A DNA stretch of 64,000 bases from positions 147,437 to 211,436 of the forward strand of contig CAZTEU010000001.1 of the NCBI GenBank assembly GCA_964612105.1, in the 5' to 3' direction. Both the position numbers and the translations under genes were made by a program. Below the pieces are notes generated by a model. That model was not told the origin of the DNA, did not search any database, and saw only the letters and a program-made list of their open reading frames with translations. Shown here piece after piece: positions 3,688-56,856 of the stretch (position 1 is the stretch's first letter; every line of letters begins with the position of its first letter). The stretch is from an uncultured Gammaproteobacteria bacterium. Its GTDB lineage: Bacteria; Patescibacteriota; Patescibacteriia; Magasanikbacterales; UBA922.

Positions 3688-3978
3688 ATGACGATATTTC
3701 AGTACATATTAGGTTTCATATTCCTACTAACAGGAATAGCTACAGTAGTATTCTGGATATTATCTCTAGTACAGATATTTACCAGAAAAGATCTACAAAA
3801 TAACAAGTGGTTATGGTTTCTAGTCATTTTCTTTATAGCTCCAATAGGCTCTATTGTCTATTTCTTTGTTGAGAAAAGAAAGAAGCTCGGTATATGGATG
3901 CTTATTACTACAGTCCTAGTGCCTGTAATACTTTCTGCGTGGGCAATATTGGTATTTATACAAAATAACATTACATAG
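3688..3978 (+). CDS. PLDc_N-domain small membrane protein
   Basis: 96 aa with two TM helices. The motif W..W...I...P.G...YF (WLWFLVIFFIAPIGSIVYFFVEKRK) is typical of the cardiolipin-synthase N-terminal (PLDc_N) domain. Confidence 0.5.
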   Translation: MTIFQYILGFIFLLTGIATVVFWILSLVQIFTRKDLQNNKWLWFLVIFFIAPIGSIVYFFVEKRKKLGIWMLITTVLVPVILSAWAILVFIQNNIT

Positions 3979-3998
3979 TAACACCAGAGACAAACACA

Positions 3999-4036
3999 AG
4001 CGCGCCACCCAGTAAAACCAGATGGCGCGTTTTTTG
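3999..4036 (+). terminator. rho-independent terminator (GC-rich stem)
   Basis: GCGCGCCA...TGGCGCGT hairpin followed by TTTTTTG. Confidence 0.6.
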
Positions 4037-4059
4037 TCTTGCTCCTAGGTCGTGTTTTG

Positions 4060-4506
4060 CTATGAGTCTATAGCCATCACGACAACCCTTCCACTGTCCT
4101 CAATGTGTGCAAACACATGGAGAATATCCTCCAAGCCCAGATTGCGTGCTCTCAGAGCCTCGCCTGCCTTGCACAACTCTTTCAGATGAAAAAGATTATC
4201 CTCTCCCTCATCACGACCACACTTCTCCCTACCACCACCGTAGGCATCACAGTCTGTATGCTGTACCAGCATAACCTTCGTAACACCACGCATAGCAACA
4301 GAGATATCCTCAATATCACGAAACAGCCTAGAGTTCGGATCCAGCAGGTCTTTTGGGCCTCCTGGAACGGAAATAAGGTCGTGATCGTGTGGCACCCTCT
4401 CCTTACCATGGTGCCTGTACATGATGAAGTCCTTCAGCGGACCATTCAACCGGAAGTCCATGCACCGTACGACAAGCCATTCACATTGTGTTTTGGGATT
4501 CTCCAT
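4060..4506 (-). CDS. beta-class carbonic anhydrase-like protein (Cab-type), paralog 1
   Basis: GC-rich ORF of 148 aa. VVRCMDFRLN (C-x-D-x-R) plus VQHTDCDAYGG (H-x-x-C) matches the zinc-ligand arrangement of minimal beta-CAs such as M. thermoautotrophicum Cab (ITCMDSRL / HTDCG), but the Gly after the Cys is replaced by Asp. A strong SD GAAGGAGGG sits upstream. Confidence 0.45.
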   Translation of the reverse strand: MENPKTQCEWLVVRCMDFRLNGPLKDFIMYRHHGKERVPHDHDLISVPGGPKDLLDPNSRLFRDIEDISVAMRGVTKVMLVQHTDCDAYGGGREKCGRDEGEDNLFHLKELCKAGEALRARNLGLEDILHVFAHIEDSGRVVVMAIDS

Positions 4507-4533
4507 CCTACCCTCCTTCTGTGCGCTTCTGCG

Positions 4534-4965
4534 CTAGTTGTCCCCGAGATAATCCACCAATCTGCACACAAACTCCCCATTATCCATTTTGTGTGCAAAA
4601 ACCATTAGTACTTCTTCCAGCTCTGGGGTTGTCTGCTTGAGTAGTATTCTGGCATGTTTGAGTATGCTGGTGTTGGCTTTCAAGCTGTCATCTCTGATTG
4701 GATGTGGGTAGTCACAGTCCACATGATGGACAATCATGATCTTGGTCACACCATAGCTTATAACGAGCGTATCCACGACCAGCTTTTTCATCGCAGAAAG
4801 ATTGGTAATCATCTGCAAAGGACCACCATGAACAGAAACTTGGTGGTACTTATGAGTGATACCAAGATGCAAATTCATGCTGATAAAGTGGTGAATTGCC
4901 AGATTGAGTCGTGAATCGACACAGCGAATCACTGCCCACCTGCTCCGAGCGTTGGAATTATCCAT
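4534..4965 (-). CDS. beta-class carbonic anhydrase-like protein, paralog 2
   Basis: 143 aa with VIRCVDSRLN and VHHVDCDYPH. It is clearly paralogous to 4060-4506. GC-rich, with SD AGGGAGGACAG upstream. Confidence 0.45.
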   Translation of the reverse strand: MDNSNARSRWAVIRCVDSRLNLAIHHFISMNLHLGITHKYHQVSVHGGPLQMITNLSAMKKLVVDTLVISYGVTKIMIVHHVDCDYPHPIRDDSLKANTSILKHARILLKQTTPELEEVLMVFAHKMDNGEFVCRLVDYLGDN

Positions 4966-5049
4966 ACTGTCCTCCCTGGTTCTGTTAGTGCCACTTGCAG
5001 TGGCCGTCTATAAATGAGACAATAGCATGGAAATAATAAGAAATCAAGT

Positions 5050-5830: not shown

Positions 5831-5931
5831 ATCTCACTATTTACAATTTTTTATAAAGAGTGAGGTTCTGGCGACGCATGCGTATGCAATTGTCGCCATT
5901 GTGAACCCTCCCTTAGATGTAGCCGAAGCTA

Positions 5932-6777
5932 CTATCGTTTGCCCTTCTCCTCCTCAGTGACATCGAAGGGCTTGATGTCGTTGAAGCCGGTATCCGCCTT
6001 GGTGCCCGGCAAGTTATTCACCACACCGACCTTGTTGAGCTCAGCGAGCGACACGTTGCCATAGCAGGTCGCTTTCACCCTTCTCTCCAGATTCATCCCG
6101 TACCCTTTCACGGTGGGAATATCCGAACGGCTCATGGTCTTGCAGAACTGCTCAACATCTCCTGGTCGGACATACTTGTGGTCTTTCTGGATGTACTTGA
6201 CATCGTGATTGACTGCATACGCCCAGTGTGCCGTCGTGAGAAACATCCTGGATAAAACACTCTCACTGGGCGATACCTTCTGCCAGGATTCGACCTTCTC
6301 GGCCAGCTTGTCCCATGCGACCATTTTGTGATAGGTATCGAGAACAACGCCGGTCACCCGTGTTGTGTACCTTCCGTCCCACGACATGTGTGGTTTGGTT
6401 GGATCTGGGATGATCTGCTTGACCGTGTTCGCATACCACGTCAAGAGGACTCTCCCCTTGCTGTAGTACTGACTCGGGACAACCTTGCCCTCCTCATCTT
6501 TCCGGAGCATCGTCCCAGCATCCGCACTGATCATGACCGAGATGCACTCAGCCACCTTCGGAGCGTGGAGTTGGTACTTCAGGACAGACTGGATCCGCTT
6601 GCTATACCCGTAGAACGCCACCTCCTTCGAGGGAACCTCGAAGTCAGCCAGGTTCATGTTGACGCACTGAAGCGTCTTGTTTGTGCCGTAGCCACCACCC
6701 ACCTGGGCAGCGCCACAGCCGATCATCAGGAACATCACGACGCCCATCAACAGGGCACCGAACAGTTTCTTCTTCAT
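5932..6777 (-). CDS. lipoprotein, hypothetical (GC-rich island)
   Basis: Start moved to the ATG at 6777 (MKKKLFGALLMGVVMFLMIGCGAA), which sits behind SD GGAGGAAG. The N-terminus is a signal peptide with lipobox LMIGC. ~56% GC in an AT-rich backbone. No recognisable domain. Confidence 0.6.
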   Translation of the reverse strand: MKKKLFGALLMGVVMFLMIGCGAAQVGGGYGTNKTLQCVNMNLADFEVPSKEVAFYGYSKRIQSVLKYQLHAPKVAECISVMISADAGTMLRKDEEGKVVPSQYYSKGRVLLTWYANTVKQIIPDPTKPHMSWDGRYTTRVTGVVLDTYHKMVAWDKLAEKVESWQKVSPSESVLSRMFLTTAHWAYAVNHDVKYIQKDHKYVRPGDVEQFCKTMSRSDIPTVKGYGMNLERRVKATCYGNVSLAELNKVGVVNNLPGTKADTGFNDIKPFDVTEEEKGKR

Positions 6778-7008
6778 CTTCTTCCTCCACACGGATTACG
6801 CCCCGTGATGCGCCTTTGGTCGACAGCTTATCGACACGGAGTATGATATTTAATCAATTAAATACCCCACTCTATGCCCAAATCTGACCGCGTATAATAG
6901 CACATTATTCCACTTTTGTCAAGTTAATCCACATATCCTTAGTTTATTATAGTACGAGTGCCTTTTTTTTGCTATAATATAACAAAATACTCCCCTGAGT
7001 TAATTTTT

Positions 7009-23970: not shown

Positions 23971-24148
23971 AATTTATGATTTTTTTGCCTGGCGATTATA
24001 ACAAAAAACAAACATATTGTCTAGTCTCTAATTACATAACTCAACAAACAAAAAATCACCCGTATTAGGATGAATGTTTCATCCTACCCAGTACTCACGA
24101 CTAGGTAGGATGTGCCTCCTTATTGGTCAGGAGTGACCGTAGATCTCC

Positions 24149-24964
24149 TTATCCCTTCTTGAGACGCAGAATTCGGTCCGTGCTGTGGAAGTTGTTGTCG
24201 AGATTGTCCCAGCGCTGTCTCCAGTGATCCGCGTGCCAGTAGACACAGCTGACGAGCTTGTTGTGGTCAGGGTTACGCCAGTCTGTGAAGACAAACACTA
24301 CCCTGTCTCGGAGCACGATGGGGATCTCGTCTTGGTGCTCCAACAAGTGCCGACCATGCTTTTCGCCGAGATGGGCATACCCAATCGTGGCACGCGCGAC
24401 CATGGCTTCGCCTCTGACACTCTCCTCACTATCTTCCAGGAAGTTGATAATCTCGTAGGTGCGGTCACCAACGGTCATCTCGGTCGGGAGAGCATCCTCT
24501 TCCTGCTTGAGACGCAGGATTCGGCTGATATTGCGGAACTGGTAGCCAATCCATTGCCATTGTCTCATCCAGTGTTTGCCATTCCAGTGTATGGTGCAAA
24601 TGTCCCCAGGATTGGCGTAATCGCGACGCCAGTTCGTGAAGACGAAGGTATTACCCCGTAGCTCGACTGGAATCTGGTGTTGGTGTTTCAGCAGATGTTC
24701 GCCTGCTTCCTTATTGGGGTTTGCGTCAATCTCGCTCACACGCCTCACCACTGTCTGACCATCTACCGACCCCTCTCCTTCCTCGTGGAACCCGAGAATC
24801 TCGTAGGTGCGGTCACCAACGGTCATCTCCTGAGGAAGGGAATCCCGGAAGAGCTTGTCGCAGAACCTCTTGACCTTCCCGGTGTTTTCCGGGTTGATCA
24901 GGTCTTCGAATCTCTTTTCACCCAACTGCTCCCGCAGATGAGCCAATTTACGCAAGGTGCCCAT
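24149..24964 (-). CDS. hypothetical protein with two tandem ~115-aa repeats (GC-rich island)
   Basis: PQEMTVGDRTYEILGFHEEGEGSV...FVFTNWRRDYANP...RILRLKQ is repeated as PTEMTVGDRTYEIINFLEDSEESV...FVFTDWRNPDHN...RILRLKK. ATG at 24964 sits behind SD GGGTGAGGAGAG. The track's GTG at 24970 is rejected. Confidence 0.5.
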   Translation of the reverse strand: MGTLRKLAHLREQLGEKRFEDLINPENTGKVKRFCDKLFRDSLPQEMTVGDRTYEILGFHEEGEGSVDGQTVVRRVSEIDANPNKEAGEHLLKHQHQIPVELRGNTFVFTNWRRDYANPGDICTIHWNGKHWMRQWQWIGYQFRNISRILRLKQEEDALPTEMTVGDRTYEIINFLEDSEESVRGEAMVARATIGYAHLGEKHGRHLLEHQDEIPIVLRDRVVFVFTDWRNPDHNKLVSCVYWHADHWRQRWDNLDNNFHSTDRILRLKKG

Positions 24965-25198
24965 TTGCACCTCTCCTCACCCTTTTGTACAAAGGGTTCA
25001 CTCCTCACCAACATGACGAAGAGGAAGACGAGTTGGTGTTCAGGTCTTCTCTTTGCATACCTAAGTAAATATACACAGAGAAGACCTAAACCATAGTATT
25101 TTAAAGAGCTATTTGACTGGTCAGATTAACATTAAATCACTATTTTGTCAATATAACCTAATTATATAACATATTTACCTAATTCTAGCTATAAAGTA

Positions 25199-25227
25199 TT
25201 GACAAATCCCTATATTTATGCTAGTTT
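25199..25227 (+). promoter_or_regulatory. putative sigma70-like promoter for rpiB
   Basis: TTGACA, a 17-nt spacer, then a weak -10 TAGTTT. AT-rich. Confidence 0.3.
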
Positions 25228-25260
25228 ATGCTCACACCCCAAGGGGAAGGAGAGAAAATC

Positions 25261-25767
25261 ATGAGTAAATCACTCAACATCGTCATCACTTCCGACCATG
25301 CAGGTCTGGATATGCGGGCGGCAATCTGCGCTTACCTGCGCAAAGAAGGTCATGCAGTCATCGACCAGGGTCCACAGCCGGGAGAGGTTGTAGACTACCC
25401 GGAGTACGCGGAGGCTGCAGTACAAGCAATGCTCTGTGACATTCCTAGCGATGTGGACGACAGCATCAAGATCGATCTGGTCATCCTCATCTGCGGTACA
25501 GGCATCGGTATGAGCATCGTCGCGAACAAGTTCAGCGGTGTCAGTGCAGCTCTGGTACACGACCATCTCACCGCGAAATTCGCGAAAGAGCACAACAACG
25601 CGAACGTGCTCTGCCTGGGCTCACGTGTGACAGCTGATGTTGTCGCAGTCGACTGCGTTGCCACGTTCCTCGAGGCAAAGTTCGAAGAGCGCCACCAACG
25701 ACGCATTGACATGATCATGGACATCGAGGTGAACGGTTCATGTATCGGATCTTTGATGTCTGACTGA
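25261..25767 (+). CDS. rpiB: ribose-5-phosphate isomerase B
   Basis: MSKSLNIVITSDHAG...CGTGIGMSIVANK matches RpiB/LacAB. Start moved to ATG 25261, 8 nt after SD AAGGGGAAGGAGAG. GC-rich. Confidence 0.8.
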   Translation: MSKSLNIVITSDHAGLDMRAAICAYLRKEGHAVIDQGPQPGEVVDYPEYAEAAVQAMLCDIPSDVDDSIKIDLVILICGTGIGMSIVANKFSGVSAALVHDHLTAKFAKEHNNANVLCLGSRVTADVVAVDCVATFLEAKFEERHQRRIDMIMDIEVNGSCIGSLMSD

Positions 25768-25778
25768 ACAAGGAGATG

Positions 25779-25815
25779 AACCAAAAGCCCCCTTCGAACG
25801 ATTCGGAGGGGGCTG
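25779..25815. terminator. GC-rich hairpin terminator (functional T-run on the minus strand, serving hpf)
   Basis: AGCCCCCTTCG-aacgat-TCGGAGGGGGCT. On the minus strand it is followed by TTTTGG. Confidence 0.5.
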
Positions 25816-25847
25816 GCGGAACTTATCATTTAACAGATGGTATTTTT

Positions 25848-26201: not shown

Positions 26202-27224
26202 TTATATTAGTTGAATCTCTTCATTTAAAGTAAACCCATATCTATCATACACAGTTTGCTTAATTTCCTCAATAAGGGTGGTAACGTCTGCAGAAGTTGC
26301 CTTACCAAGATTAATGATAAAGTTGCCATGTTCCTCACTAATTTTTGCATCACCAATTTGTCTTCCTTTTAGTCCACACATTTCCACAAGCCATCCAGCT
26401 GGTATTTTCTTGTTCTGTAAAAAACTAGCTACTTTCTCATCTTCCTTACTAAAATTATCCAATAGCTTCTGAGATATAGAATCATCTATAATTTCTATGT
26501 TCTTAAAAATACAGCCAGTAGAAGCATATCCTTTAGGTTGAGTTTCATTTCTGTACTTAATAACTTCCAATGCTTTACGTCTTGCATCATTGTCCTCTCC
26601 TTTTTTTAACGAAAAGGTTGCTCGTAATATTACATCATTGTTGTGCTTAAATTTGCTGTCACGATACCCGAAATTACAATCTTCGTTAGAAAGAGTTATT
26701 GCTTCCCCATCTCTGTACACTTCTACAGATTTTAGTGTGTCTTTTATCTCTGCACCAGTAGCTCCAGCATTACCCCTGATTGCTCCTCCAATACTTCCTG
26801 GTATACCAACTCCCCATTCAAAACCTGTTAATCCAGATTTTATTGTCTCCTGAGCAAGAGCAACAGTCTGTATTCCAGCTGTGGCTGTGACCTCTTCCCC
26901 CTTCACTTCTACTGACCTATCCACAATCTGGACAACAACACCATCATAACCATTATCACTAGCAAGCATATTGCTTCCACCTCCAAACACAATATATTTA
27001 TGCCCTTCTCCGTCTAGATATTTTAGTAGGTCTATTGCAGAATCTACACTGTCTACAATTACAAAATAGGTGGCTGGACCACCAATCTTGAAGGTTGTGT
27101 GTTTGGAAAGAGGTTCGTTTGTCTTTACCTTTCCAAATTCTTTTAATTTTGAGTAAATTTCATCCATAACTAACCTAAGGATAGCGTTATTTTGAGTAAT
27201 TTGCAAGTATACTCTGTTATCCAC
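26202..27224 (-). CDS. murB: UDP-N-acetylenolpyruvoylglucosamine reductase
   Basis: FAD-binding FKIGGPATYF...VFGGGSNML and the C-terminal MurB domain. Confidence 0.8.
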   Translation of the reverse strand: MDNRVYLQITQNNAILRLVMDEIYSKLKEFGKVKTNEPLSKHTTFKIGGPATYFVIVDSVDSAIDLLKYLDGEGHKYIVFGGGSNMLASDNGYDGVVVQIVDRSVEVKGEEVTATAGIQTVALAQETIKSGLTGFEWGVGIPGSIGGAIRGNAGATGAEIKDTLKSVEVYRDGEAITLSNEDCNFGYRDSKFKHNNDVILRATFSLKKGEDNDARRKALEVIKYRNETQPKGYASTGCIFKNIEIIDDSISQKLLDNFSKEDEKVASFLQNKKIPAGWLVEMCGLKGRQIGDAKISEEHGNFIINLGKATSADVTTLIEEIKQTVYDRYGFTLNEEIQLI

Positions 27225-27357
27225 AATATCCTTTACTTTTTCTCTATTTATGCTAACCTAATTACATGAACGTATTTAATGTATTCACAACAAAGAAGAC
27301 CAAGAAGGTCCTCCCTCGGAAGAGGTAGTTGTGTTGCATTAGAAAAAATTGCTAACC

Positions 27358-27384
27358 AGCCACCTCAACCGAGGTGGTTTTTCT
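27358..27384 (+). terminator. intrinsic terminator/attenuator hairpin
   Basis: CCACCTC-aacc-GAGGTGG followed by TTTTT. No gene ends here on the + strand. Confidence 0.5.
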
Positions 27385-27399
27385 ATTGGGGGTGGGAAA

Positions 27400-27612
27400 G
27401 ATGAGTGGGAATCAGGAACATGGCGCAGTCTCAAACGACAAGGACGGGAACGATCTCTTTCCAGGAGATGTTGTCTGGCCAGGATGGGCACTGTTCGCAG
27501 GAAGACGAGGGGTTGTGCAAGAATCCACATACAGCTCTGCTATCGTTCATCTCGTGGAGGAGGGTGGTACAGCAAGTGGAACAATCCGCAGTTCCTCAGT
27601 ATCCAAACGCTG
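27400..27612 (+). other. GC-rich unit: either a 70-aa ORF with an SD, or a structured RNA
   Basis: GGGGGTGGGaaagATG, then MSGNQEHGAVSNDKDGNDLFPGDVVWPGWALFAGRRGVVQ... Three + frames are simultaneously open. Flanked by hairpin terminators at 27358-27384 and 27633-27674. Confidence 0.3.
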
Positions 27613-27632
27613 AGCAAGGAGGACACACAGCG

Positions 27633-27674
27633 GGGATCTAGGCATTAGCCTGATCCCCGTGTCTCTTTTTTTGG
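27633..27674 (+). terminator. rho-independent terminator
   Basis: GGGGATC-(12 nt)-GATCCCC, then gtgtctc, then T7. Confidence 0.55.
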
Positions 27675-27704
27675 CTAATTCTAGCCTTTTTTTTTACTTT
27701 ACTA

Positions 27705-27733
27705 TTGACAAATAGCATATATTGTGTTACTAT
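27705..27733 (+). promoter_or_regulatory. sigma70-like promoter for 27850 lipoprotein gene
   Basis: TTGACA, a 17-nt spacer, then TACTAT. Confidence 0.45.
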
Positions 27734-27849: not shown

Positions 27850-28638
27850 ATGAAAGGTAAAATCCTATCATTAGGAGCCGTGGCTGTATTGTTACTTGTA
27901 GGAGCAGGGTGTGCCCAAGTGGAAAGCCCAGCACTAGAGAAACAAGCCACAGAACCTGTAGTGCAAAACACTACAGATGGGACTACAGTAGAGACTGTAG
28001 TATCAGATGACAGTATTACTCTGTCTGCTGTTCCAACAGCAATTCCAGGTGAAGTATTACTTACTTGGAATGTACCTACTGAGCTTGAAAGCCCAGAAGG
28101 TTACCGTCTTGTTCGTTCTGCAAATGTAGAACCAAGGTTTCCTGGTAGTTTCTGGTTTCACCAGGGACAGGAGCGTCGTCATATCACCTGGATTAACGTA
28201 CCAGCGGGAAGACAATATTTCCGTTTATGTCAGTTCAAAGGTGGTGAATGTGTGGCGTACAGTAATCAAGTTAGTGTAAATCTTGGAGAAAATGCAAATT
28301 CTACTGCATCTCCTTACACTACTAAACGTACAGAAGTAGAAGTTATACGTAATTTCTACAATGCACTAATGAGCGACAACAAAGCAGACGCTCTAAAATA
28401 TGTACCTGCAAGTGTACGATCAGCGGATTTCTTCAAACAAAAGTGGGAAGAGATACAAGATTGGCAGTTCCAGAATGTTGAGATTCGTCTTGACACAATT
28501 ACTGGAGATATCTTCAGCATAAAGAAAGTGGATATCGTAGTAGGTGTAAAAGTTGATGGAAAAATTGTAGCTGGCCCTAGACAAGTTACAGTAGACTTCC
28601 GTAACGACAAATGGTACATCGTGGACTTCCAGTTATAA
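27850..28638 (+). CDS. lipoprotein, hypothetical
   Basis: Signal peptide with lipobox LLVGAGC. 262 aa. No SD, AT-rich (native class). Confidence 0.55.
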   Translation: MKGKILSLGAVAVLLLVGAGCAQVESPALEKQATEPVVQNTTDGTTVETVVSDDSITLSAVPTAIPGEVLLTWNVPTELESPEGYRLVRSANVEPRFPGSFWFHQGQERRHITWINVPAGRQYFRLCQFKGGECVAYSNQVSVNLGENANSTASPYTTKRTEVEVIRNFYNALMSDNKADALKYVPASVRSADFFKQKWEEIQDWQFQNVEIRLDTITGDIFSIKKVDIVVGVKVDGKIVAGPRQVTVDFRNDKWYIVDFQL

Positions 28639-29354: not shown

Positions 29355-29459
29355 AAAATGTAGTTGAGAGATTATAGCAGATATTGTGTATTTTTCAAGT
29401 ACACATACTTTTCCACACTCCCCTAGACTTTATTTGTTTTATACTCTATACTTTTTCCA

Positions 29460-29690
29460 TACCCTTGAGGTATGGCGTCGTGCATGCGCGGATGTTGTCT
29501 TGCCACCAACCCTCATCGAGGGTAGGTCAGCAGATGCAGCCGTAGGAACTCTACTAATTATCAAGAGGTCCAGTCCTTGCTTTTTCTGCCCCGTCGATCA
29601 CCAAATAAGGCTTCGGGGCTCATCACGTAGGAGCGACTGACGGTTCTTAGGGGGATCTTAGTTGTGTACGACGCCCCCTCCATTTGACCA
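29460..29690 (+). ncRNA. candidate small structured RNA (~215 nt, GC-rich), identity unknown
   Basis: GC-rich block with no credible ORF. The 5' end GGCGTCGTGC (29466-29475) pairs with the 3' end GTACGACGCC (29668-29677) as a closing stem. Followed by terminator 29720-29744. Confidence 0.3.
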
Positions 29691-29719
29691 AAAAAGGTTT
29701 TTGTCCAAATGTTGTAAAA

Positions 29720-29744
29720 AAACGCTTAAATAAGCGTTTTTTTT
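29720..29744. terminator. bidirectional terminator
   Basis: A7-CGCTTA-aa-TAAGCG-T8. Confidence 0.65.
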
Positions 29745-29754
29745 ATATTCTCTA

Positions 29755-29783
29755 TTGACAGGTTGTCCTATTTCAAGTATAAT
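29755..29783 (+). promoter_or_regulatory. consensus sigma70 promoter (TTGACA-N17-TATAAT)
   Basis: TTGACAggttgtcctatttcaagTATAAT is a perfect -35/-10 pair with 17-nt spacing. It sits directly upstream of a GC-rich non-coding stretch. Confidence 0.7.
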
Positions 29784-29789
29784 CCCCAG

Positions 29790-30245
29790 TTGTTTCCTGT
29801 TAGAACTCCGTATAAGGAAGAACGATCTCACGGCTCGATCAAGTAGTTGAGGGGGGTAGAAAAGGAAGGACATAAGTCACCCTTCCTTAGAGGCCAACCA
29901 AAGCCACCCTTCTTCGTCCTCTGCATTGCAAGTCGAAAAAAAACAAAAGATCGAGTGTAAGTCCCTAGTACTCCAGTGATGATCGGCCCCTTATGGCGTT
30001 GAGTACGCGGAAATGATGGAGGTGTGTGTTCCCAAGCTGCTCGGGGTTCAATTCCTGAAAACTGTCGCTTTCTGGCTAAGGCCTGATTGTAGGATGACGG
30101 ACGAGACAAAACAGTGGAAAGTTCACTCCCCTTCTACGTGTACGGTAGCGACGTGCGGTTCTGTAGTCCTAATATTTGGATTACATTCCGCACGTCGCTG
30201 CCACACGTTCGACCATATAAACCTCATTAAGATGTGGTTTTTTGT
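29790..30245 (+). ncRNA. candidate ~455-nt GC-rich non-coding RNA, identity unknown
   Basis: Downstream of the perfect promoter. No ORF with SD or homology. Several GC stems (AAGGAAGG...CCTTCCTT at 29868-29896, and a 14-bp inverted repeat 30143-30157/30188-30202). Ends at T-run 30235-30249. Confidence 0.35.
30143..30202 (+). repeat. 14-bp inverted repeat (stem-loop with 30-nt loop)
   Basis: GGTAGCGACGTGCGG ... CCGCACGTCGCTGCC. Confidence 0.7.
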
Positions 30246-30252
30246 TTGGTAA

Positions 30253-51849: not shown

Positions 51850-51980
51850 ATGAATTAGTTATGATTTATTAATATTTAAATACATTTTAATTATAGCACA
51901 GCTTTGACAAAATCAAGATACTGTTTTATTTTACATATGCCTTGCACAAGCAAGCTCAACCAGAAACAGTGGAGGGTTAG

Positions 51981-52571
51981 ATGAGTTCACGAATAGAGTC
52001 GCCAAGCAAGAAAGACCTCAGAGAGGTATCGAATGCTTTCAAGATCACAGAGAACTGGCCAAAACCTGGTGTTACCTTCCGCTGTGTCAGCGGTGTGCTG
52101 GAGTCACCAAAACTTCGACGAATGATGAACATGGCGCTGTCAAAAAGGATCCAGGAAATGACGCCAGATGTCGTTGTGCTCCTCGATTCACGAGGCTTCC
52201 TGCTCACTCCAGCGGTAGACCTCCTCTGTCTGCCAGTTGTCATGGCGCGCAAGGCTGGCAAGCTACCACCACCATGCGTCGCTTACACTTACGACTTGGA
52301 ATACGGAACAGCGACCATCGAGCTACAGAGGCAGGCTTTCCACAAAACCAGCAGGGATATGGCTTCCCGTGGTATGAGTGGACCACCAAGAGTGGTGATC
52401 GCTGATGACGTCCTCGCAACTGGGGGCACTGTACTGGCAACCAAAACCCTTGTGGAACAGTTGGAATGCACAGTGGCAGGATACGTGTTCATCGCAGAGC
52501 TCAATGGACTTGGAGGGTCAAATAGGCTCGCCACAAAGTCCACACCTGTCGAGTCACTCTTTCGTTTCTAG
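51981..52571 (+). CDS. apt: adenine phosphoribosyltransferase (GC-rich island)
   Basis: PRTase PRPP-binding loop VVIADDVLATGGTV and APRT-like N-terminus ITENWPKPGVTFRCVSGVLESPKL. SD GGAGGG sits 6 nt upstream. Confidence 0.7.
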   Translation: MSSRIESPSKKDLREVSNAFKITENWPKPGVTFRCVSGVLESPKLRRMMNMALSKRIQEMTPDVVVLLDSRGFLLTPAVDLLCLPVVMARKAGKLPPPCVAYTYDLEYGTATIELQRQAFHKTSRDMASRGMSGPPRVVIADDVLATGGTVLATKTLVEQLECTVAGYVFIAELNGLGGSNRLATKSTPVESLFRF

Positions 52572-52583
52572 GGAGGAAGCAAA

Positions 52584-53177
52584 ATGTCCAAGGAAAGAGA
52601 AATCGACCAAATCGATACCCTCCTGACCGCAGAGGAAATCGCAGAGCGTGTTGAGAAGATCGGTAAGCAGATCTCTCTCGACTACAGAGGTAAGTTGGAC
52701 GGCCAACCACTCATCCTCATCTGTGTACTCAAAGGTTCGTTTATCTTCACAGCCGACCTGATGCGTGCCATCGATGAGGACATTCCGGTAATCGTTCAGT
52801 TCATCGCTGTGAGTTCCTACGAGGGGAAAACCACCAAATCAAGTGGTGCTGTTCGTCTCGCATACGACCTCCGTGAAAACATCGAAGGACGAGACTGCAT
52901 CATTGTAGAGGACATCGTTGACACCGGATTGACGGTGAAGTACCTTCTAGATCTGTTTGGGGCACGCAAACCGCGTTCACTGCGAGTCTGTACACTCCTC
53001 CACAAGCCGTCGCGTGAAAAGGTCAAAGTGCCACTGCAATATGTCGGCTACACAATCGAGAACAAGTTCGTTGTTGGTTGCGGTCTGGACTACGACCAGC
53101 TACTACGTGGACGAGGAGACATTGGAGAGCTGGTCTTCAAAGACGAAGGGGAAGAGGGCAGTCCTGAGGGAGGCTAG
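52584..53177 (+). CDS. hpt: hypoxanthine-guanine phosphoribosyltransferase (GC-rich island)
   Basis: LKGSFIFTADL...IVEDIVDTGLTVKYL...LLHKPSR...GCGLDY. SD GGGAGGAAG. Confidence 0.8.
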   Translation: MSKEREIDQIDTLLTAEEIAERVEKIGKQISLDYRGKLDGQPLILICVLKGSFIFTADLMRAIDEDIPVIVQFIAVSSYEGKTTKSSGAVRLAYDLRENIEGRDCIIVEDIVDTGLTVKYLLDLFGARKPRSLRVCTLLHKPSREKVKVPLQYVGYTIENKFVVGCGLDYDQLLRGRGDIGELVFKDEGEEGSPEGG

Positions 53178-53200
53178 TCCTGACACACAAGGTTCAAAAA

Positions 53201-53241
53201 AGGCGAGGTTTACTTCATGTTGACCTCGCCTATTTCTTTTT
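53201..53241. terminator. bidirectional terminator
   Basis: AGGCGAGGT-(13 nt)-ACCTCGCCT, flanked by A6 upstream and T-run downstream. Confidence 0.65.
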
Positions 53242-53243
53242 AT

Positions 53244-54641
53244 TTATATTTTTATTATTCTGTCCTTGATATAGTCTTCAATCCCCTTTTCATTAAAATC
53301 TTTTATATTTTTCATTGCTGGAGACTCCTCCTTCTCAACTCTTTCGTGTAATGGTTTAAGATATTTTTCCTCACCAAGCCCTCTTTTTTTAAGACCTTCT
53401 TCTGCAATTTCTACTAGTTGTTTTACAATTGGTATAACTTCTTCTACTTCCATGCTCTTCGCTATTGTTTTCTCTCTTAATTCTCTCCAATATTCCCAAG
53501 GTTTTGCATCTACAATTTCTTTTGCTTTTTCTATGTTCTCAACAAGCCCAAGAATAAACGCTGGAGTAGACATAACACTATCCCATGGTTGAGAAGCCAT
53601 GTTACGTGTCTCAATATACAACTTGTATGCATGTTCTTTTGCGTATTCGTCTATCTTGTTATTATCATATGCCTCTAGAAGAGATTGCAAAGATTGTTTT
53701 TCATCAAAAAAGATTTTAGGTCTAGCCTGAGTCCAAATATACATGTTTAACTCATTTACATCCGCAACACTAGGCTCAACCTCTGAAGGCATTACATTTC
53801 CAAGATCGAAAGTCTCCCACTTATCCTTCCTAAAGTAATCTTTAATATCTATAAGAGGACTGATATTATGAAGTGTTTTCCCGCGAAATATACCTGGCAT
53901 TAGTACAGACCAATTATATTCTATGTAATCCCTAAAGGTTTTAAATGGTTTTTTTGGAATACCACACATCCTTTGATTCTTCTCATCTAAATCTTCTACA
54001 AGCTTGTCCCAGCGGTCTTCCCTAATTTCATGACAGTTTTGTATTTTCCATTCCCCTACTCCACTATTTGCAAACAGAGCAATTGTAGCACCACCCAGAG
54101 CATTTAGTGTGTTTGTTACAACCACAGCCTCATCATATTTCATGTCTATACAAACCTGGTGTGCAGAAATATTATGATAATCTGAATGTTTTTGCGCAAA
54201 AGATGGCAACAGCGTCACAATTCTATACCAAATCTTTTCTGACTTTAAATCCGGAAAGCCAGAGGGTGTTTTTGGTTGTAATCCTGTATCTATTAACCCA
54301 ATGCCAATTTTATTTGTAATTTCTAAAAATTCCTTAAGAATCTTCCTCATATTTTTCTCACACTCTTCCAAAGTTGCAAAAGGAAGAAAACCAAATTCTA
54401 TTACACTAGTTCCAGCATCTGTATTAATAATAACTTCCTGTCCATCCTCTTGTGTATAAATAACCCCAACAGGCTGTTTAGTCCCATAGTCAAAATAGGT
54501 TTCAACATTTTCCTTCTTACCCCAGTTTCTCCATATTTCCTTAACCTCATCTCTGGTTATAGCAAGACCTGTTTCTAAATTTATAGCTAGAAACTCATAC
54601 TCTAGTCCTATTTTTCTGTGTTTATCTTCTGGTTTGTACAT
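53244..54641 (-). CDS. carboxylate-amine ligase-like protein (GCS2 / glutamine-synthetase fold), hypothetical
   Basis: N-terminal IGLEYEFLAINLETG resembles the E-x-E metal site of GCS2 (YbdK LGIELEMQ). 465 aa, AT-rich native class. The assignment is tentative. Confidence 0.35.
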   Translation of the reverse strand: MYKPEDKHRKIGLEYEFLAINLETGLAITRDEVKEIWRNWGKKENVETYFDYGTKQPVGVIYTQEDGQEVIINTDAGTSVIEFGFLPFATLEECEKNMRKILKEFLEITNKIGIGLIDTGLQPKTPSGFPDLKSEKIWYRIVTLLPSFAQKHSDYHNISAHQVCIDMKYDEAVVVTNTLNALGGATIALFANSGVGEWKIQNCHEIREDRWDKLVEDLDEKNQRMCGIPKKPFKTFRDYIEYNWSVLMPGIFRGKTLHNISPLIDIKDYFRKDKWETFDLGNVMPSEVEPSVADVNELNMYIWTQARPKIFFDEKQSLQSLLEAYDNNKIDEYAKEHAYKLYIETRNMASQPWDSVMSTPAFILGLVENIEKAKEIVDAKPWEYWRELREKTIAKSMEVEEVIPIVKQLVEIAEEGLKKRGLGEEKYLKPLHERVEKEESPAMKNIKDFNEKGIEDYIKDRIIKI

Positions 54642-54694
54642 AGTTACCTAGTAAAGGTAACAAAAAAACAACACATTTACAAGATAATAAAAAA

Positions 54695-54727
54695 AATCCC
54701 GATTACTCGGGATTACTAATCTATGCA
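54695..54727 (-). terminator. rho-independent terminator of the Cys-rich protein gene
   Basis: Minus strand: AATCCCGA-gtaa-TCGGGATT followed by T8. Confidence 0.7.
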
Positions 54728-54855
54728 CCATTATTGATGAACAAATTAGTGGGGCGGTGAATCTTTCGATCCACCGCCAGGGGTTCCCTCCTTGGGCTCC
54801 TCCTTCAGATTGTCCGGGACTAAACAACCTACCACCGTTCGTGCTGGCAACACTC

Positions 54856-56697
54856 TCAGATGCAGACCTGGGTAGGCCTTCCAATGGTCTTGTAGAAAAA
54901 CCACTCGATCCCGAATGCACAACCCTTGCCGTTCTTGTAGTCACAGCTCTGATCCTTGGGGTCGCTGTTGTCGCACTCAACACAGAACTTCTGGTTTTTC
55001 TTCTCGGCTGCCCAGTAGACAGTAGCACACTGCTCACCGAACTTTGACCCCTTGCAGTCCTTGTCGGCTCCACAGCAACCAAAGTCCTCATGGTGACATT
55101 TGCCGTTGAGATCACAGTAGTCCGCGGTGCAGACCTTGCCATCAGAGCAGTCCTTGTTGACCTTGCACAGCTTACATCCAGCGATTGGTTTGTATTGACA
55201 CCCATTCGTCTTGTTGCAGGAGTCTGTTGTGCACAGATCCCCGTCATCGCATGACAATTCCTTGCCTGTACAGATACTTCCCTTGCACTTGTCGTTGAGG
55301 GTGCAGACGTTCATGTCTGTGCAAATTGCACCATCGTCCATCGGGATGAAGGTGCACTTGCCGGTCTTCTGGTCACAGGAGTCCTTGGTGCAAGGGTTCT
55401 TGTCCACACACTCCACTCCCATGCCAAGACACTTGCCGTCCTTGCATCCATCGCTGGTCGTGCAAGAATCGTTGTCGTTGCAGTCGATACCATTCTGGGA
55501 TGGTGTGAAGGCACAATCTCCAGTCTTGGAGTCGCAGAAATCCTTGGTGCATGGATTGTTGTCTTCACACACCTTTGTGGTTTTCGTGATGCAGACCCCA
55601 CTGATGCACTTTTCCACAGTGCAGACGTCGCTTTCCTTGCACTTCTTCATCTCTGTGATCTTGCAACCCTTGCTTGTGCAGACCATCTTCTCGATGCACG
55701 ACTGAGCGTCGACTTTGCACTGATCGTGGTCTGGGCTGTGAGCACACTTCCCTGTTCCAAGAACGCACGAGTCGATGGTGCATGCGATTCCATCCTTGCA
55801 GTCGACAGACTCGTTCTTGCACTTGCTGTTGGCTGTGCAGGTGTCGGTGGTGCAGAGGTTCTTGTCATCACAATCACCTGACTTGGTGCACTCGCAAACG
55901 TTGATGCCTTTGGTGCACGTGTTCTTGATGCACTGATGATTGACTGTGCAAGAATCCTCGTCATCGCACTCGACGTCTGTAGAGCAACAGTCCTCGATCT
56001 CCTCGTGTATGCACTCTTTCAAGGTTTCCAAATCGCAGGAGTCTGCAGTACAAGGTTTGCCGTCGTCGCAGGACTTTTGGTTCACAGTGAACACACACTT
56101 CCCGCTCTCGAAGACGCATAGATCGTCTGTGCAATCAACCCCGTCGTCGCAAATGACATTGTCCGTGTTCACACAAAGACTGTCCTGACATACGTCGACG
56201 GTGCAGAGATTCTCATCCAAATCACACACATTGCCAATCGACTTGTACACGCAACCCTTGCCTGGATCGCATGAATCGTCCGTGCAGACATTGTCGTCGT
56301 TGCAAACCTTCCACGAATCCATGTCTCCGACACACTTCCCGCTTTCGAGATCGCACTTGGAAATCTCGGTGCAGGAGTTGTTATCATCACAGGTCGCGGT
56401 GTTTGGCATATGCACACAGCCGACATCTTCTTCGCAGACATCTTTGGTGCAAATCTTGCCGTCGTCGCATTTGTCGGGGACGTAGTCGCACTTGTTGTTG
56501 CTGTTGCATTTGCCAATCCAGCAACTCTTGATGCAATCATCCTTCGTCTCACAGAAACCAGGAGGAAGTTGTGTATCCTCAGAGCCCTGATCTGCAAAGG
56601 TAGCAGCGTCAGCCGGCCCTTTGACCGAATCTTCGCTACATGAAATTGAGAGGAAAATCACCACGAACATCGTGATGATGAGGTCCCGGTTCATCAT
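54856..56697 (-). CDS. giant cysteine-rich repeat lipoprotein/secreted protein (GC-rich island)
   Basis: Start at MMNRDLIITMFVVIFLSISC, 7 nt after SD AAGGAG. Dozens of repeats of the form C-x-D-x-N/D-x-C-T-x-D-x-C-D-x-x-T/S-G-x-C, about 18% Cys. Resembles Myxococcus-type cysteine-rich repeats (inference). Confidence 0.65.
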   Translation of the reverse strand: MMNRDLIITMFVVIFLSISCSEDSVKGPADAATFADQGSEDTQLPPGFCETKDDCIKSCWIGKCNSNNKCDYVPDKCDDGKICTKDVCEEDVGCVHMPNTATCDDNNSCTEISKCDLESGKCVGDMDSWKVCNDDNVCTDDSCDPGKGCVYKSIGNVCDLDENLCTVDVCQDSLCVNTDNVICDDGVDCTDDLCVFESGKCVFTVNQKSCDDGKPCTADSCDLETLKECIHEEIEDCCSTDVECDDEDSCTVNHQCIKNTCTKGINVCECTKSGDCDDKNLCTTDTCTANSKCKNESVDCKDGIACTIDSCVLGTGKCAHSPDHDQCKVDAQSCIEKMVCTSKGCKITEMKKCKESDVCTVEKCISGVCITKTTKVCEDNNPCTKDFCDSKTGDCAFTPSQNGIDCNDNDSCTTSDGCKDGKCLGMGVECVDKNPCTKDSCDQKTGKCTFIPMDDGAICTDMNVCTLNDKCKGSICTGKELSCDDGDLCTTDSCNKTNGCQYKPIAGCKLCKVNKDCSDGKVCTADYCDLNGKCHHEDFGCCGADKDCKGSKFGEQCATVYWAAEKKNQKFCVECDNSDPKDQSCDYKNGKGCAFGIEWFFYKTIGRPTQVCI

Positions 56698-56856
56698 CTC
56701 AGCTCCTTCTTGACTGCACTTGGCAGTACTGTTGCGCACACGAATACAAATGGTCAGCTTGAGCTAACACACACAATATCCATAAGATACTCTGTGAGCT
56801 AGCCCAAAGCATAGTATAAAAAGAACGCTGTTGTTCCTATTATAGGAAAACAGCTA

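What the first reader, a model, noticed from the sequence alone, without database searches (positions are those of the whole stretch)
27290..27675. GC-rich cassette bracketed by two intrinsic terminators: structured RNA or SD-equipped 70-aa ORF
Between murB (-) and the promoter of the 27850 lipoprotein gene lies a ~380-bp GC-rich segment. It begins with a hairpin + T5 (27358-27384) that terminates nothing annotated. Then comes GGGGGTGGGaaagATG, opening a 70-aa frame (27400-27612) while two other + frames stay open, which is typical of GC-rich RNA genes. It ends with a GGGGATC...GATCCCC + T7 terminator. Local resemblances to TPP (CUGAG...CCUGAUC) and cobalamin (GGCACUG...GGAAG) riboswitch boxes were checked, but order and spacing do not fit. 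This may be a small foreign-class protein gene, or a small RNA with an upstream attenuator.
Basis: seen in the sequence. Interest (0 to 1): 0.5.

Follow-up and report, generated by a model that had tools for sequence, protein, structure and literature searches.

The report
Leader-peptide attenuator before tiny protein gene
The GC-rich segment is a small, real protein gene of unknown function, and the 'terminator that terminates nothing' in front of it belongs to a strongly conserved leader that has all the parts of a ribosome-sensing transcription attenuator, which I found no report of in this bacterial group (Patescibacteria/CPR).

Summary
The sequence features are real: two strong + strand hairpin/T-run terminators, a G-rich Shine-Dalgarno, a 70-codon ORF (27401-27613) and a 50% GC island in a 38% GC Magasanikiibacteriota (CPR) genome.

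The core is not a structured RNA gene. It has no Rfam match and no excess folding energy. A syntenic relative (L137) has a 74-aa ORF at the same place that is 38% identical over 60 ungapped residues, with a coding-type substitution pattern.

The surprise is upstream. The leader 27266-27384 is the best conserved DNA in the neighbourhood: 82% identity, against 47% for the small CDS and 59-68% for flanking genes. A covariance model finds it in a third genome (L138), in another context.

All three leaders carry:
- a 19-20-codon mini-ORF with the same ATG-AAY start and AGG-TAG stop;
- an in-frame indel;
- a run of Thr/Lys codons;
- mutually exclusive 1:2, 2:3 (antiterminator) and 3:4 (terminator) helices.

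Simulated ribosome stalling on the Thr/Lys run abolishes the terminator in the window. A ribosome at the stop codon, or no ribosome, restores it.

Best reading: a leader-peptide attenuator controlling an orphan small protein. Only three sequences exist and no compensatory changes, so the mechanism is inferred, not shown.

The parts
27251..27259 (+). Putative extended -10 element TGcTAACCT, 6 nt upstream of the mini-ORF ATG. This would give a leaderless or near-leaderless transcript.
   Evidence: Read from the sequence. L137 has TGtTAAGCT at the same distance. L138 has TATAAT 25 nt upstream of its ATG. Native genes of the window typically have a -10 box 8-24 nt before the ATG and no SD. This is inferred: the consensus scan did not call it.
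27266..27328 (+). Mini-ORF (leader peptide) MNVFNVFTTKKTKKVLPRKR*, 20 codons plus TAG.
   Evidence: The same ATG-AAY start and AGG-TAG stop occur in L137 (MNTLVRLTKKTTKVIPRKR*) and L138 (MNHIVRTTTTTTKTFQPER*). The only length difference is an in-frame 3-nt indel. It is the only frame open in all three; the alternative frame is closed in L137 (read).
27287..27307 (+). Run of candidate regulatory codons ACA ACA AAG AAG ACC AAG AAG (T T K K T K K), in segment 1.
   Evidence: L137 has T K K T T K. L138 has six consecutive Thr codons, then K and T.
27275..27343 (+). 1:2 structure: an outer stem and a CACAAC/GUUGUG stem enclosing two small hairpins, -23.9 kcal/mol. It sequesters segment 2.
   Evidence: (leader z = -3.6). 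L137 and L138 also pair the ACAAC-type codons with GUAGUUGUGUUG, but in another register and, in L138, without the two small hairpins.
27314..27374 (+). 2:3 antiterminator hairpin, -27.2 kcal/mol. Arms are 27314-27338 and 27350-27374. It is mutually exclusive with the terminator.
   Evidence: (inverted repeat I1). 94% of cells are paired in three sequences. Two one-sided pair-preserving changes, no double changes.
27358..27384 (+). 3:4 attenuator terminator: AGCCACCUC-AACC-GAGGUGGUU plus a U run, -14.5 kcal/mol.
   Evidence: 100% of cells are paired in three sequences. The G-to-A change in column 98 keeps both the terminator and the antiterminator pair.
27388..27396 (+). G-rich Shine-Dalgarno-like element GGGGGTGGG, 4-8 nt before the ATG.
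   Evidence: L138 has GGGGGG and L137 has AGGA. In the window SD-like elements occur before GC-rich genes but not before native genes.
27401..27613 (+). 70-aa protein-coding gene of unknown function, an orphan family predicted to be beta-rich.
   Evidence: Called as a gene on JGI contigs. Homologue L137:2734-2958 is 38% identical over 60 ungapped residues, E = 5e-13. Differences by codon position are 31/20/37, with 14 synonymous codon changes. It is the best of six frames under both codon models. No match in Pfam, NCBIfam, PHROGs or PDB.
27622..27672 (+). Main intrinsic terminator of the small gene: extended stem around CGGGGAUC...GAUCCCCG, -25 kcal/mol, then T7.
   Evidence: z = -4.03; I10.
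27673..27695 (+). Second, back-up terminator-like hairpin GGCTAATTCTAGCC plus T9.

Best explanation
The segment is one + strand transcription unit with two parts.

(1) A 70-aa protein-coding gene (27401-27613) has a Shine-Dalgarno and its own strong terminator. It belongs to a fast-evolving orphan family of small, probably beta-rich cytoplasmic proteins.

(2) A roughly 120-nt leader (27266-27384) works as a ribosome-mediated (leader-peptide) transcription attenuator. The proposed steps are as follows.
- Transcription probably starts at or next to the ATG of a 20-codon mini-ORF.
- If no ribosome follows the polymerase, segment 1 pairs with segment 2. The 3:4 terminator then forms and transcription stops at about 27384.
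- If a ribosome reads the mini-ORF through to its UAG (27326-27328), which lies inside segment 2, it covers segment 2. The terminator again forms.
- If the ribosome stalls on the run of Thr/Lys codons (27287-27307), segment 1 is covered but segment 2 (GAGGUAGUUGUGUUG) stays free. Segment 2 pairs with segment 3 (CAACCAGCCACCUC) as an antiterminator, and the polymerase reads on into the small gene.
- The gene would therefore be switched on when charged tRNA-Thr and/or tRNA-Lys is scarce, or when translation is slowed in general.

Shown: the conservation of the ORF, of the leader, of the mini-ORF's start and stop, and of the three alternative helices.

Inferred: the transcription start, translation of the mini-ORF, the sensed signal, and the function of the protein.
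For: CDS:
- A syntenic relative, L137, has the order hpf-murB | 74-aa gene | lipoprotein | DUF218.
- The proteins are 38% identical over 60 residues without a gap, E = 5e-13.
- Differences at codon positions 1/2/3 are 31/20/37, and 14 conserved residues use different codons.
- The ORF70 frame is the best of six under both codon-usage models.
- Only the CDS frame stays clean in L137.

Leader conservation:
- Nucleotide identity between window and L137 is 82% in the leader core. It is 47% in the small CDS, 59% in the lipoprotein gene, 62% in murB and 68% in hpf (alignments).
- A covariance model built from two leaders finds a third at L138:2878-3000 (64.6 bits, E = 3.6e-14). It lies in a different gene context and is again followed by a G-rich SD, a 65-codon GC-rich ORF and a terminator.

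Mini-ORF: start, stop and frame are conserved in all three, with an in-frame indel and a Thr/Lys run.

Alternative helices in all three loci:
- 1:2 at -15 to -23 kcal/mol;
- 2:3 at -19 to -27 kcal/mol;
- 3:4 at -11 to -14.5 kcal/mol.

Variable positions fall in loops. The few changes in stems preserve pairing, with 94% and 100% of cells paired.

Ribosome-masking simulation in the window, P(terminator):
- 0.92 with no ribosome;
- 0.00 with the A site at codons 10-12;
- 0.76 at codon 14;
- 1.00 at the stop codon.
L137 behaves similarly for the stalled and terminating ribosome.

The sensor domain is not structurally conserved, because L138 lacks the two small hairpins. This is expected of a peptide attenuator and not of an aptamer.

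Native genes of this genome lack an SD and have a -10 box close to the ATG. This fits a leaderless mini-ORF.
Against: - Only three sequences exist, and the paired regions are almost invariant. No base pair shows a compensatory double change, and the shuffle controls are uninformative.
- Conservation of the peptide cannot be separated from conservation of the RNA. The Thr codons (ACA/ACU) are also what is needed to pair with GUAGUUGUGUUG.
- At equilibrium, L137 prefers the antiterminator even without a ribosome (P(terminator) = 0.14). In L138 a stalled ribosome lowers the terminator only to 0.57.
- The regulated gene is not an amino-acid biosynthesis or aminoacylation gene, so the logic of the signal is unexplained.
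- No promoter passed the consensus scan upstream of the mini-ORF.
- The ORF behind the L138 leader is not detectably homologous to ORF70.
- There are no expression data.
Confidence: 0.55

Rival explanations
1. The leader is a riboswitch or a protein- or tRNA-binding cis-regulatory RNA. A ligand or factor stabilises the 27275-27343 junction structure and so favours the terminator. The mini-ORF is incidental.
For: - A 69-nt three-way-junction-like fold precedes a terminator/antiterminator pair.
- A 23-nt block, CCUCGGAAGAGGUAGUUGUGUUG, is invariant between window and L137, and variation is confined to loops.
- Conservation at synonymous sites of the mini-ORF shows selection at the RNA level.
Against: - No Rfam family matches at E <= 10 in any of the three loci.
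- The junction with its two small hairpins is absent in L138, where segment 1 forms one long stem in another register. Aptamers normally keep their architecture.
- The mini-ORF keeps its start, stop and frame through an indel and a diverged 5' half.
Confidence: 0.17
2. 27266-27384 is an independent small RNA gene, or a gene for a functional micro-peptide, ended by its own terminator. The 70-aa gene is a separate unit expressed only by leaky read-through. Nothing is being regulated.
For: - The leader is a self-contained promoter-proximal structure with a terminator, z = -3.6.
- It is much better conserved than the CDS.
- In L138 it sits in front of a non-homologous ORF.
- Terminated attenuator RNAs and leader peptides can act in trans, as with rnTrpL/peTrpL (abstracts of PMC6614838 and PMC7298713, as listed).
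Against: - Only 17 nt separate the T-run from the ATG of ORF70, and no promoter fits there. The small gene can therefore only be transcribed through the terminator.
- In all three loci the leader is followed at once by an SD and a small ORF.
- The conserved antiterminator has no role in a plain sRNA gene.
Confidence: 0.12
3. The GC-rich core 27385-27670 is a structured non-coding RNA gene and the 70-codon ORF is fortuitous.
For: - All three + frames are open, P = 0.0004.
- GC content is well above the genome's.
- No protein family matches.
Against: - The MFE is no better than shuffles, z = -0.96.
- There are no Rfam hits.
- The homologous region in L137 is only 47% identical in DNA but 38% identical in protein, without gaps and with codon-position bias.
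- The off-frames are closed in L137.
Confidence: 0.03
4. The segment is a decaying remnant of horizontally acquired DNA (junk) that carried a donor gene's terminator with it.
For: - The window holds about nine GC-rich islands with SD-bearing genes, unlike the native genes.
- Some of them (273-aa gene, rpiB) are absent from relatives.
- Most relatives lack the segment.
Against: - The module is conserved in position and frame in L137. Its leader is conserved in L138.
- The leader is the best conserved DNA of the region.
Confidence: 0.03

Closest known systems
Leader-peptide attenuators of amino-acid operons, above all the E. coli thr operon leader thrL (Rfam Thr_leader RF00506). The trp, his, leu and pheA leaders are of the same kind.
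   Same: - A short uORF with a run of codons for the sensed amino acid. L138 has six consecutive Thr codons.
- A stop codon placed in or next to segment 2.
- Mutually exclusive 1:2, 2:3 and 3:4 helices.
- An intrinsic terminator just before the regulated gene.
   Different: - No sequence or covariance-model similarity: no Rfam leader family at E <= 10.
- The codon run mixes Thr and Lys.
- The uORF appears to be leaderless, with no SD.
- The regulated gene is a 65-74-aa orphan protein, not a biosynthetic operon.
- The host is a CPR bacterium. From general knowledge, such bacteria have little amino-acid biosynthesis.
Ribosome-stalling attenuators in front of non-biosynthetic genes, for example antibiotic-induced leaders such as B. 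subtilis yxjB/tlrB (PMC6851288, abstract listed).
   Same: Stalling on a uORF switches a terminator/antiterminator pair. The regulated product is not an amino-acid enzyme. The system senses the state of translation.
   Different: There is no evidence for a drug-dependent arrest motif. The N-terminal half of the peptide is not conserved. The downstream protein resembles no resistance factor.
Sinorhizobium trpL attenuator with trans-acting products, rnTrpL and peTrpL (PMC6614838, PMC7298713; abstracts listed).
   Same: The leader RNA is conserved much more strongly than its cargo. It also occurs before a different ORF (L138), as one would expect if the terminated leader or its peptide has a role of its own.
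   Different: There is no sequence similarity. A trans function here is pure speculation.
Transcriptional OFF riboswitches with a three-way-junction aptamer, for example the purine class.
   Same: A junction fold of about 70 nt sits directly upstream of a terminator with a competing antiterminator.
   Different: No Rfam match. The helices are much shorter. The junction is not conserved in L138.

Membership tests
Ribosome-mediated (leader-peptide) transcription attenuator | A short upstream ORF with a conserved start and stop. | tested here: met
   19-20 codons. The ATG-AAY start and AGG-TAG stop are aligned in three loci, with an in-frame 3-nt indel.
Ribosome-mediated (leader-peptide) transcription attenuator | A run of regulatory codons inside segment 1. 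| tested here: inconclusive
   The runs are TTKKTKK, TKKTTK and TTTTTTKT. They are enriched, but two amino acids are mixed. The Thr codons are also demanded by pairing with GUAGUUGUGUUG.
Ribosome-mediated (leader-peptide) transcription attenuator | Mutually exclusive 1:2, 2:3 and 3:4 helices, with the uORF stop in or near segment 2. | tested here: met
   The UAG at 27326-27328 lies inside the 5' arm of the antiterminator. There is no covariation support.
Ribosome-mediated (leader-peptide) transcription attenuator | An intrinsic terminator directly before the regulated gene. | tested here: met
   A 9-bp GC-rich stem plus a U run ends 17 nt before the ATG. It is conserved in L137 and L138.
Ribosome-mediated (leader-peptide) transcription attenuator | The regulated genes belong to the metabolism of the sensed amino acid. 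| tested here: not met
   The downstream gene is an orphan 70-aa protein with no family match.
Ribosome-mediated (leader-peptide) transcription attenuator | Read-through depends on translation of the uORF. | not testable with these tools
   This needs Term-seq, Ribo-seq or reporter assays.
Rfam Thr_leader (RF00506) and other curated leader or riboswitch families | A match to the family's covariance model. | tested here: not met
   cmscan found nothing at gathering scores. At E <= 10 on the three loci it found only chance hits.
Riboswitch (generic) | An aptamer architecture conserved among homologues. | tested here: not met
   The two small hairpins and the junction of window and L137 are replaced by one long stem in L138.
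Structured ncRNA gene (core 27385-27670) | Excess thermodynamic stability, or conserved helices without coding signal. | tested here: not met
   z = -0.96 on + and -1.24 on -. The substitution pattern is of the coding type.
Protein-coding gene (ORF70) | A homologous ORF in the same frame in a relative, with a purifying-selection pattern. | tested here: met
   L137:2734-2958 is 38% identical, ungapped, with codon-position differences 31/20/37. Only one homologue exists.
Known protein families (Pfam, NCBIfam, PHROGs, PDB sequences) | A significant profile match. | tested here: not met
   The phmmer hits against 1.8 billion representatives come from three unrelated repeat proteins (PPC, INT_rpt, PDZ), whose scores add up over repeats.

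The most novel reading that the evidence does not exclude
This is a lineage-specific sensor of ribosome speed in Magasanikiibacteriota (CPR). A leaderless mini-ORF rich in ANN (Thr/Lys) codons gates, by attenuation, a family of tiny GC-rich proteins. The leader is the conserved, portable unit and its cargo can be exchanged, as in L138. It would be the first leader-peptide attenuator I know of in Patescibacteria. It would control a translation-stress or starvation effector rather than a biosynthetic operon, in organisms thought to depend on a host for amino acids.
Probability: 0.35. Interest if true: 0.6.

Novelty: new variant of a known kind. Interest (0 to 1): 0.45.

Why it matters
Leader-peptide attenuation is a textbook mechanism, known mainly from amino-acid operons of Proteobacteria and a few other phyla.

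If the reading is right, the mechanism also exists in an ultra-small CPR bacterium. There the native genes have no Shine-Dalgarno, the uORF is probably leaderless, and the regulated product is an orphan 70-aa protein. That would point to a starvation or translation-stress response in a group whose physiology is almost unknown.

It also gives a concrete handle for annotation. The handle is a 15-nt invariant core, GAGGUAGUUGUGUUG, plus CCACCU..CCGAGGUGGUUUU, and the covariance model R2. With these, further copies and their cargo genes can be found.

A practical lesson follows too. A 'terminator that terminates nothing' directly upstream of an SD-bearing ORF is a good marker for attenuators.

Tried and rejected
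- Rfam: at gathering scores on the whole window only a tRNA matched. At E <= 10 on the segment and on both homologous loci there were only chance hits. TPP, cobalamin, T-box and the Thr/His/Trp leader families are rejected.
- Structured RNA for the core: z-scores of -0.96 and -1.24. Rejected.
- Protein homology of ORF70:
  - Pfam, NCBIfam, PHROGs and PDB sequences gave nothing.
  - The word-index search of 5.8 billion proteins found only itself. The two-sequence profile found only the two members.
  - Exhaustive phmmer gave three repeat proteins of unrelated families, so the scores are repeat-inflated. The WPGWALFAGR resemblance to the integrase-repeat motif is not supported by Pfam at E <= 1.
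- AlphaFold2 with one sequence (pLDDT 52.6) and with two (48.7) was too poor for a fold search.
- Relatives:
  - Searching ORF70 in viral and metagenome contigs found nothing.
  - MurB-anchored loci from genomes and metagenomes (136 loci, 1.05 Mb) hold no homologue of the segment.
  - The contigs L001 and L002 are the same organism at 99.97-100% identity.
  - Success came only through the lipoprotein neighbour.
  - Two viral-contig pattern scans for the leader core gave 0 matches.
- Insertion hypotheses (mobile cassette, integron or MITE): the only flanking repeat is an 8-nt TGCTAACC pair, which is expected by chance in 580 nt.
- Similar attenuators before the other GC-rich genes of the window: none seen. 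The covariance models found no second copy in the window.
- The shuffle test of the antiterminator 'gain' was not discriminating, because the 1:2 helix competes by design.
- Homology of the L138 65-aa ORF to ORF70: not detectable.
Full report
SETTING

The window is about 38% GC. Its MurB is at best 54% identical to MurB of Candidatus Magasanikiibacteriota and related Patescibacteria MAGs. Two JGI metagenome contigs (L001, L002) are the same organism at 99.97-100% identity. They confirm the assembly across the segment.

The segment lies between murB (-, 26202-27167) and a lipoprotein gene (+, 27850-28638). That gene's consensus promoter is at 27705-27733.

THE OBSERVATION

- a 50% GC island at 27290-27698;
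- a 9-bp hairpin at 27358-27379 with T5;
- GGGGGTGGG followed by ATG at 27401;
- a 70-codon ORF ending at 27613;
- a strong terminator, CGGGGATC...GATCCCCG at 27631-27659, with T7;
- a further hairpin at 27673-27686 with T9.

Terminator-like sites are enriched in the region, 7 against 1.3 +/- 1.1 in shuffles. The three + frames are open over 75-87 codons, which is rare in dinucleotide shuffles (P = 0.0004). Comparable stop-free stretches occur in another GC-rich gene of the window. The homologous ORF in a relative has 7 stops in one off-frame. I therefore treat the open frames as a by-product of composition.

IS THE CORE AN RNA GENE OR A CDS?

Evidence against an RNA gene:
- Rfam gives nothing at gathering scores, and nothing but chance hits at E <= 10.
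- The core folds no better than shuffled sequence, with z = -0.96 on + and -1.24 on -.

Intrinsic coding tests are only mildly positive:
- Under a codon model trained on the window's other GC-rich genes, the ORF70 frame is the best of six, at +2.2 bits against -10 to -39.
- Under a model trained on native genes it scores +8.5 against -23 or lower.
- The absolute score lies at the low end of true genes, and 8% of shuffles reach it.

Sequence searches made ORF70 an orphan:
- Pfam, NCBIfam, PHROGs and PDB sequences gave no match.
- The 5.8-billion-protein index returned only the protein itself.
- The exhaustive phmmer search returned three repeat proteins of unrelated families (PPC, integrase repeat, PDZ). 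Their scores are sums over near-identical repeats.

The decisive evidence came from the neighbouring lipoprotein.
- Its 55%-identical homologue P0006 lies on a Logan contig, L137.
- L137 has the same gene order: hpf, murB (-), a called 74-aa gene (+), the lipoprotein (+), DUF218 (-).
- The 74-aa protein aligns with ORF70 over 60 residues without a gap at 38% identity (E = 5e-13 for the pair).
- At the DNA level the two CDSs differ at 31, 20 and 37 sites in codon positions 1, 2 and 3.
- 14 of the 23 conserved residues use different codons.

This is the signature of a protein under purifying selection. ORF70 is therefore a real gene of a small, fast-evolving family. AlphaFold2 models are of low confidence (pLDDT 52.6 and 48.7) and only suggest a beta-rich fold.

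THE LEADER

The DNA upstream of the ORF is far better conserved than the ORF. Identity between window and L137 is as follows (alignments):
- leader core: 82%;
- small CDS: 47%;
- lipoprotein gene: 59%;
- murB: 62%;
- hpf: 68%.

A covariance model of the two leaders (R1) found a third copy in a complete Patescibacteria genome, at L138:2878-3000 (GCA_965231005.1; 64.6 bits, E = 3.6e-14).
- There it lies between a biopterin-dependent hydroxylase gene and uvrA.
- It is again followed directly by a G-rich SD, a 65-codon GC-rich ORF and a hairpin/T-run terminator.
- That ORF shows no detectable similarity to ORF70.
- No further copy exists in about 390 kb of related loci or in the window.

ANATOMY OF THE LEADER (window coordinates)

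Mini-ORF. It runs from ATG at 27266 to TAG at 27326-27328 and encodes MNVFNVFTTKKTKKVLPRKR.
- L137 encodes MNTLVRLTKKTTKVIPRKR. L138 encodes MNHIVRTTTTTTKTFQPER.
- Start (ATG AAY) and stop (AGG TAG) are aligned in all three.
- The only length difference is a 3-nt indel.
- The other long frame through the leader is closed in L137 (read).
- Codons 8-14 form a run of Thr and Lys codons. L138 has six Thr codons in a row.

Alternative structures:
- Segment 1 (27275-27313) pairs with segment 2 (27314-27343), -23.9 kcal/mol.
- Segment 3 pairs with segment 4 as the terminator (27358-27384), -14.5 kcal/mol.
- Segment 2 can instead pair with segment 3 in a 61-nt hairpin (27314-27374), -27.2 kcal/mol, which excludes the terminator.

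All three loci can form all three helices. Sequence variation falls in loops: the small hairpin loop, the 15-17-nt spacer and the terminator loop.

The few substitutions in stems keep pairing. One G-to-A change is compatible with both the terminator and the antiterminator. 94% and 100% of cells are paired, but no pair shows a double compensatory change.

MECHANISM

This is the geometry of a classical leader-peptide attenuator. The regulatory codons are in segment 1 and the stop codon is inside segment 2.

I simulated it by forbidding pairing of the nucleotides covered by a ribosome. P(terminator) was:

| Ribosome position | Window | L137 | L138 |
|---|---|---|---|
| none | 0.92 | 0.14 | 1.00 |
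| A site at codon 10 | 0.00 | 0.00 | 0.57 |
| A site at codon 12 | 0.00 | 0.36 | 0.57 |
| A site at codon 14 | 0.76 | 0.95 | 1.00 |
| at the stop codon | 1.00 | 0.99 | 1.00 |

The model works cleanly in the window and only partly in the other two at equilibrium. L137 prefers the antiterminator even without a ribosome.

Two points about translation signals fit this reading.
- Native genes of this genome have no Shine-Dalgarno and carry a -10 box 8-24 nt before the ATG.
- The mini-ORF is preceded at 6 nt by TGcTAACCT (TGtTAAGCT in L137). This fits a leaderless uORF, but the start site is inferred.

Riboswitch alternative. It is weakened because the junction with two small hairpins seen in window and L137 is replaced in L138 by one long stem in another register. 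Meanwhile the ORF and the complementarity to segment 2 are kept. An independent-sRNA reading cannot explain the conserved antiterminator. It also cannot explain why an SD-ORF always follows within about 17-25 nt.

WHAT IS NOT SHOWN

- Transcription start.
- Translation of the mini-ORF.
- Which signal is sensed: Thr, Lys, both, or slow translation in general. All codons of the run are ANN.
- What the 70-aa protein does.

The Thr codons may be partly dictated by the need to pair with GUAGUUGUGUUG. With three sequences there is no statistical covariation.

COMPARISON WITH KNOWN SYSTEMS

The device works like thrL, trpL or hisL-type attenuators. It is not a member of any curated Rfam leader family. 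It also fails the usual criterion that the regulated genes serve the sensed amino acid.

It is closer in logic to uORF attenuators in front of non-biosynthetic genes. In a full-text search for 'leader peptide', 'transcription attenuation' and 'Patescibacteria', none of the 12 listed papers contained 'Patescibacteria'. I therefore class it as a new variant of a known kind.

CONTEXT AND LOOSE ENDS

The window contains about nine GC-rich islands. All the others are protein genes with SD-like elements, unlike the native genes:
- a pair of carbonic-anhydrase-like paralogues;
- a lipoprotein;
- a 273-aa gene;
- rpiB;
- two phosphoribosyltransferases;
- a 627-aa Cys-rich protein.

Two of them, the 273-aa gene and rpiB, interrupt the hpf-secA-like adjacency seen in relatives.

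ORF70 shares this 'foreign' look (GC3 0.46 against about 0.27), yet its position is shared with L137. Why its composition stays atypical is unexplained. The L138 cargo has GC3 0.57.

VERDICT

The finding is real. Its RNA-gene reading is wrong. Its protein reading and its attenuator hint are right. The interesting part is the conserved leader.

Confidence:
- about 0.85 that ORF70 is a gene;
- about 0.75 that the leader is a terminator/antiterminator switch;
- about 0.55 that it is driven by translation of the mini-ORF.

Noticed in passing
window 29355-30252: About 900 nt with no called gene. The stretch is absent from relative L137, where the DUF218 and beta-CASP genes are 185 nt apart. A perfect TTGACA-N17-TATAAT promoter at 29755-29783 (+) is followed by about 460 nt of GC-rich sequence with no convincing ORF. 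That sequence has MFE z = -3.86 and ends in a hairpin + T run near 30228-30246. There is no Rfam, tRNA or tmRNA match, only a weak RsaF-like hit at 29643-29762 (30 bits, gathering 60). It contains GGAAAGUUC, which recalls the RNase P P4 strand. It may be an unrecognised or very divergent large ncRNA.
   Followed up: partly
window 3969-5042, 5846-6904, 24056-25845, 51939-53245, 54693-56806: GC-rich islands (47-53% GC in a 38% genome) that are all protein-coding. They carry Shine-Dalgarno-like elements, whereas native genes have none and have a -10 box close to the ATG. The 273-aa gene and rpiB (24149-25767) interrupt the hpf/secA-like adjacency found in relatives. This looks like mosaic acquisition of foreign genes by a CPR genome.
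   Followed up: partly
window 54856-56739 (-): A 627-aa secreted Cys-rich protein made of Dictyostelium-type CTDC repeats (Pfam PF00526, E = 5e-28), GC-rich. It is an unusual repeat family for a Patescibacteria genome.
   Followed up: no
window 4060-4965 (-): Two tandem paralogous small genes (148 and 143 aa) with weak, below-threshold similarity to the putative carbonic anhydrase family Pro_CA_2. Both are GC-rich.
   Followed up: no
L137 758-1140: In the relative, a GC-rich stretch (51-54% GC in a 32% GC locus) with no called gene lies between hpf and the next gene. It contains a 72-aa Cys-rich ORF (818-1036, +). It may be another small GC-rich cassette at the spot where the window carries the 273-aa gene and rpiB.
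   Followed up: no
L138 3007-3270: Behind the conserved leader in the third genome lies an uncalled 65-codon GC-rich ORF (GC 0.56, GC3 0.57) with a GGGGGG SD and a GGGATC...GGTCCC + T-run terminator. That terminator resembles the window's GGGGATC...GATCCCC terminator. The protein is not detectably related to ORF70, so either it has diverged extremely or the cargo was exchanged.
   Followed up: partly
window 24446-24481 and 24794-24829: A 36-nt near-identical (97%) direct repeat inside the 273-aa GC-rich gene, pointing to an internally repeated protein.
   Followed up: no
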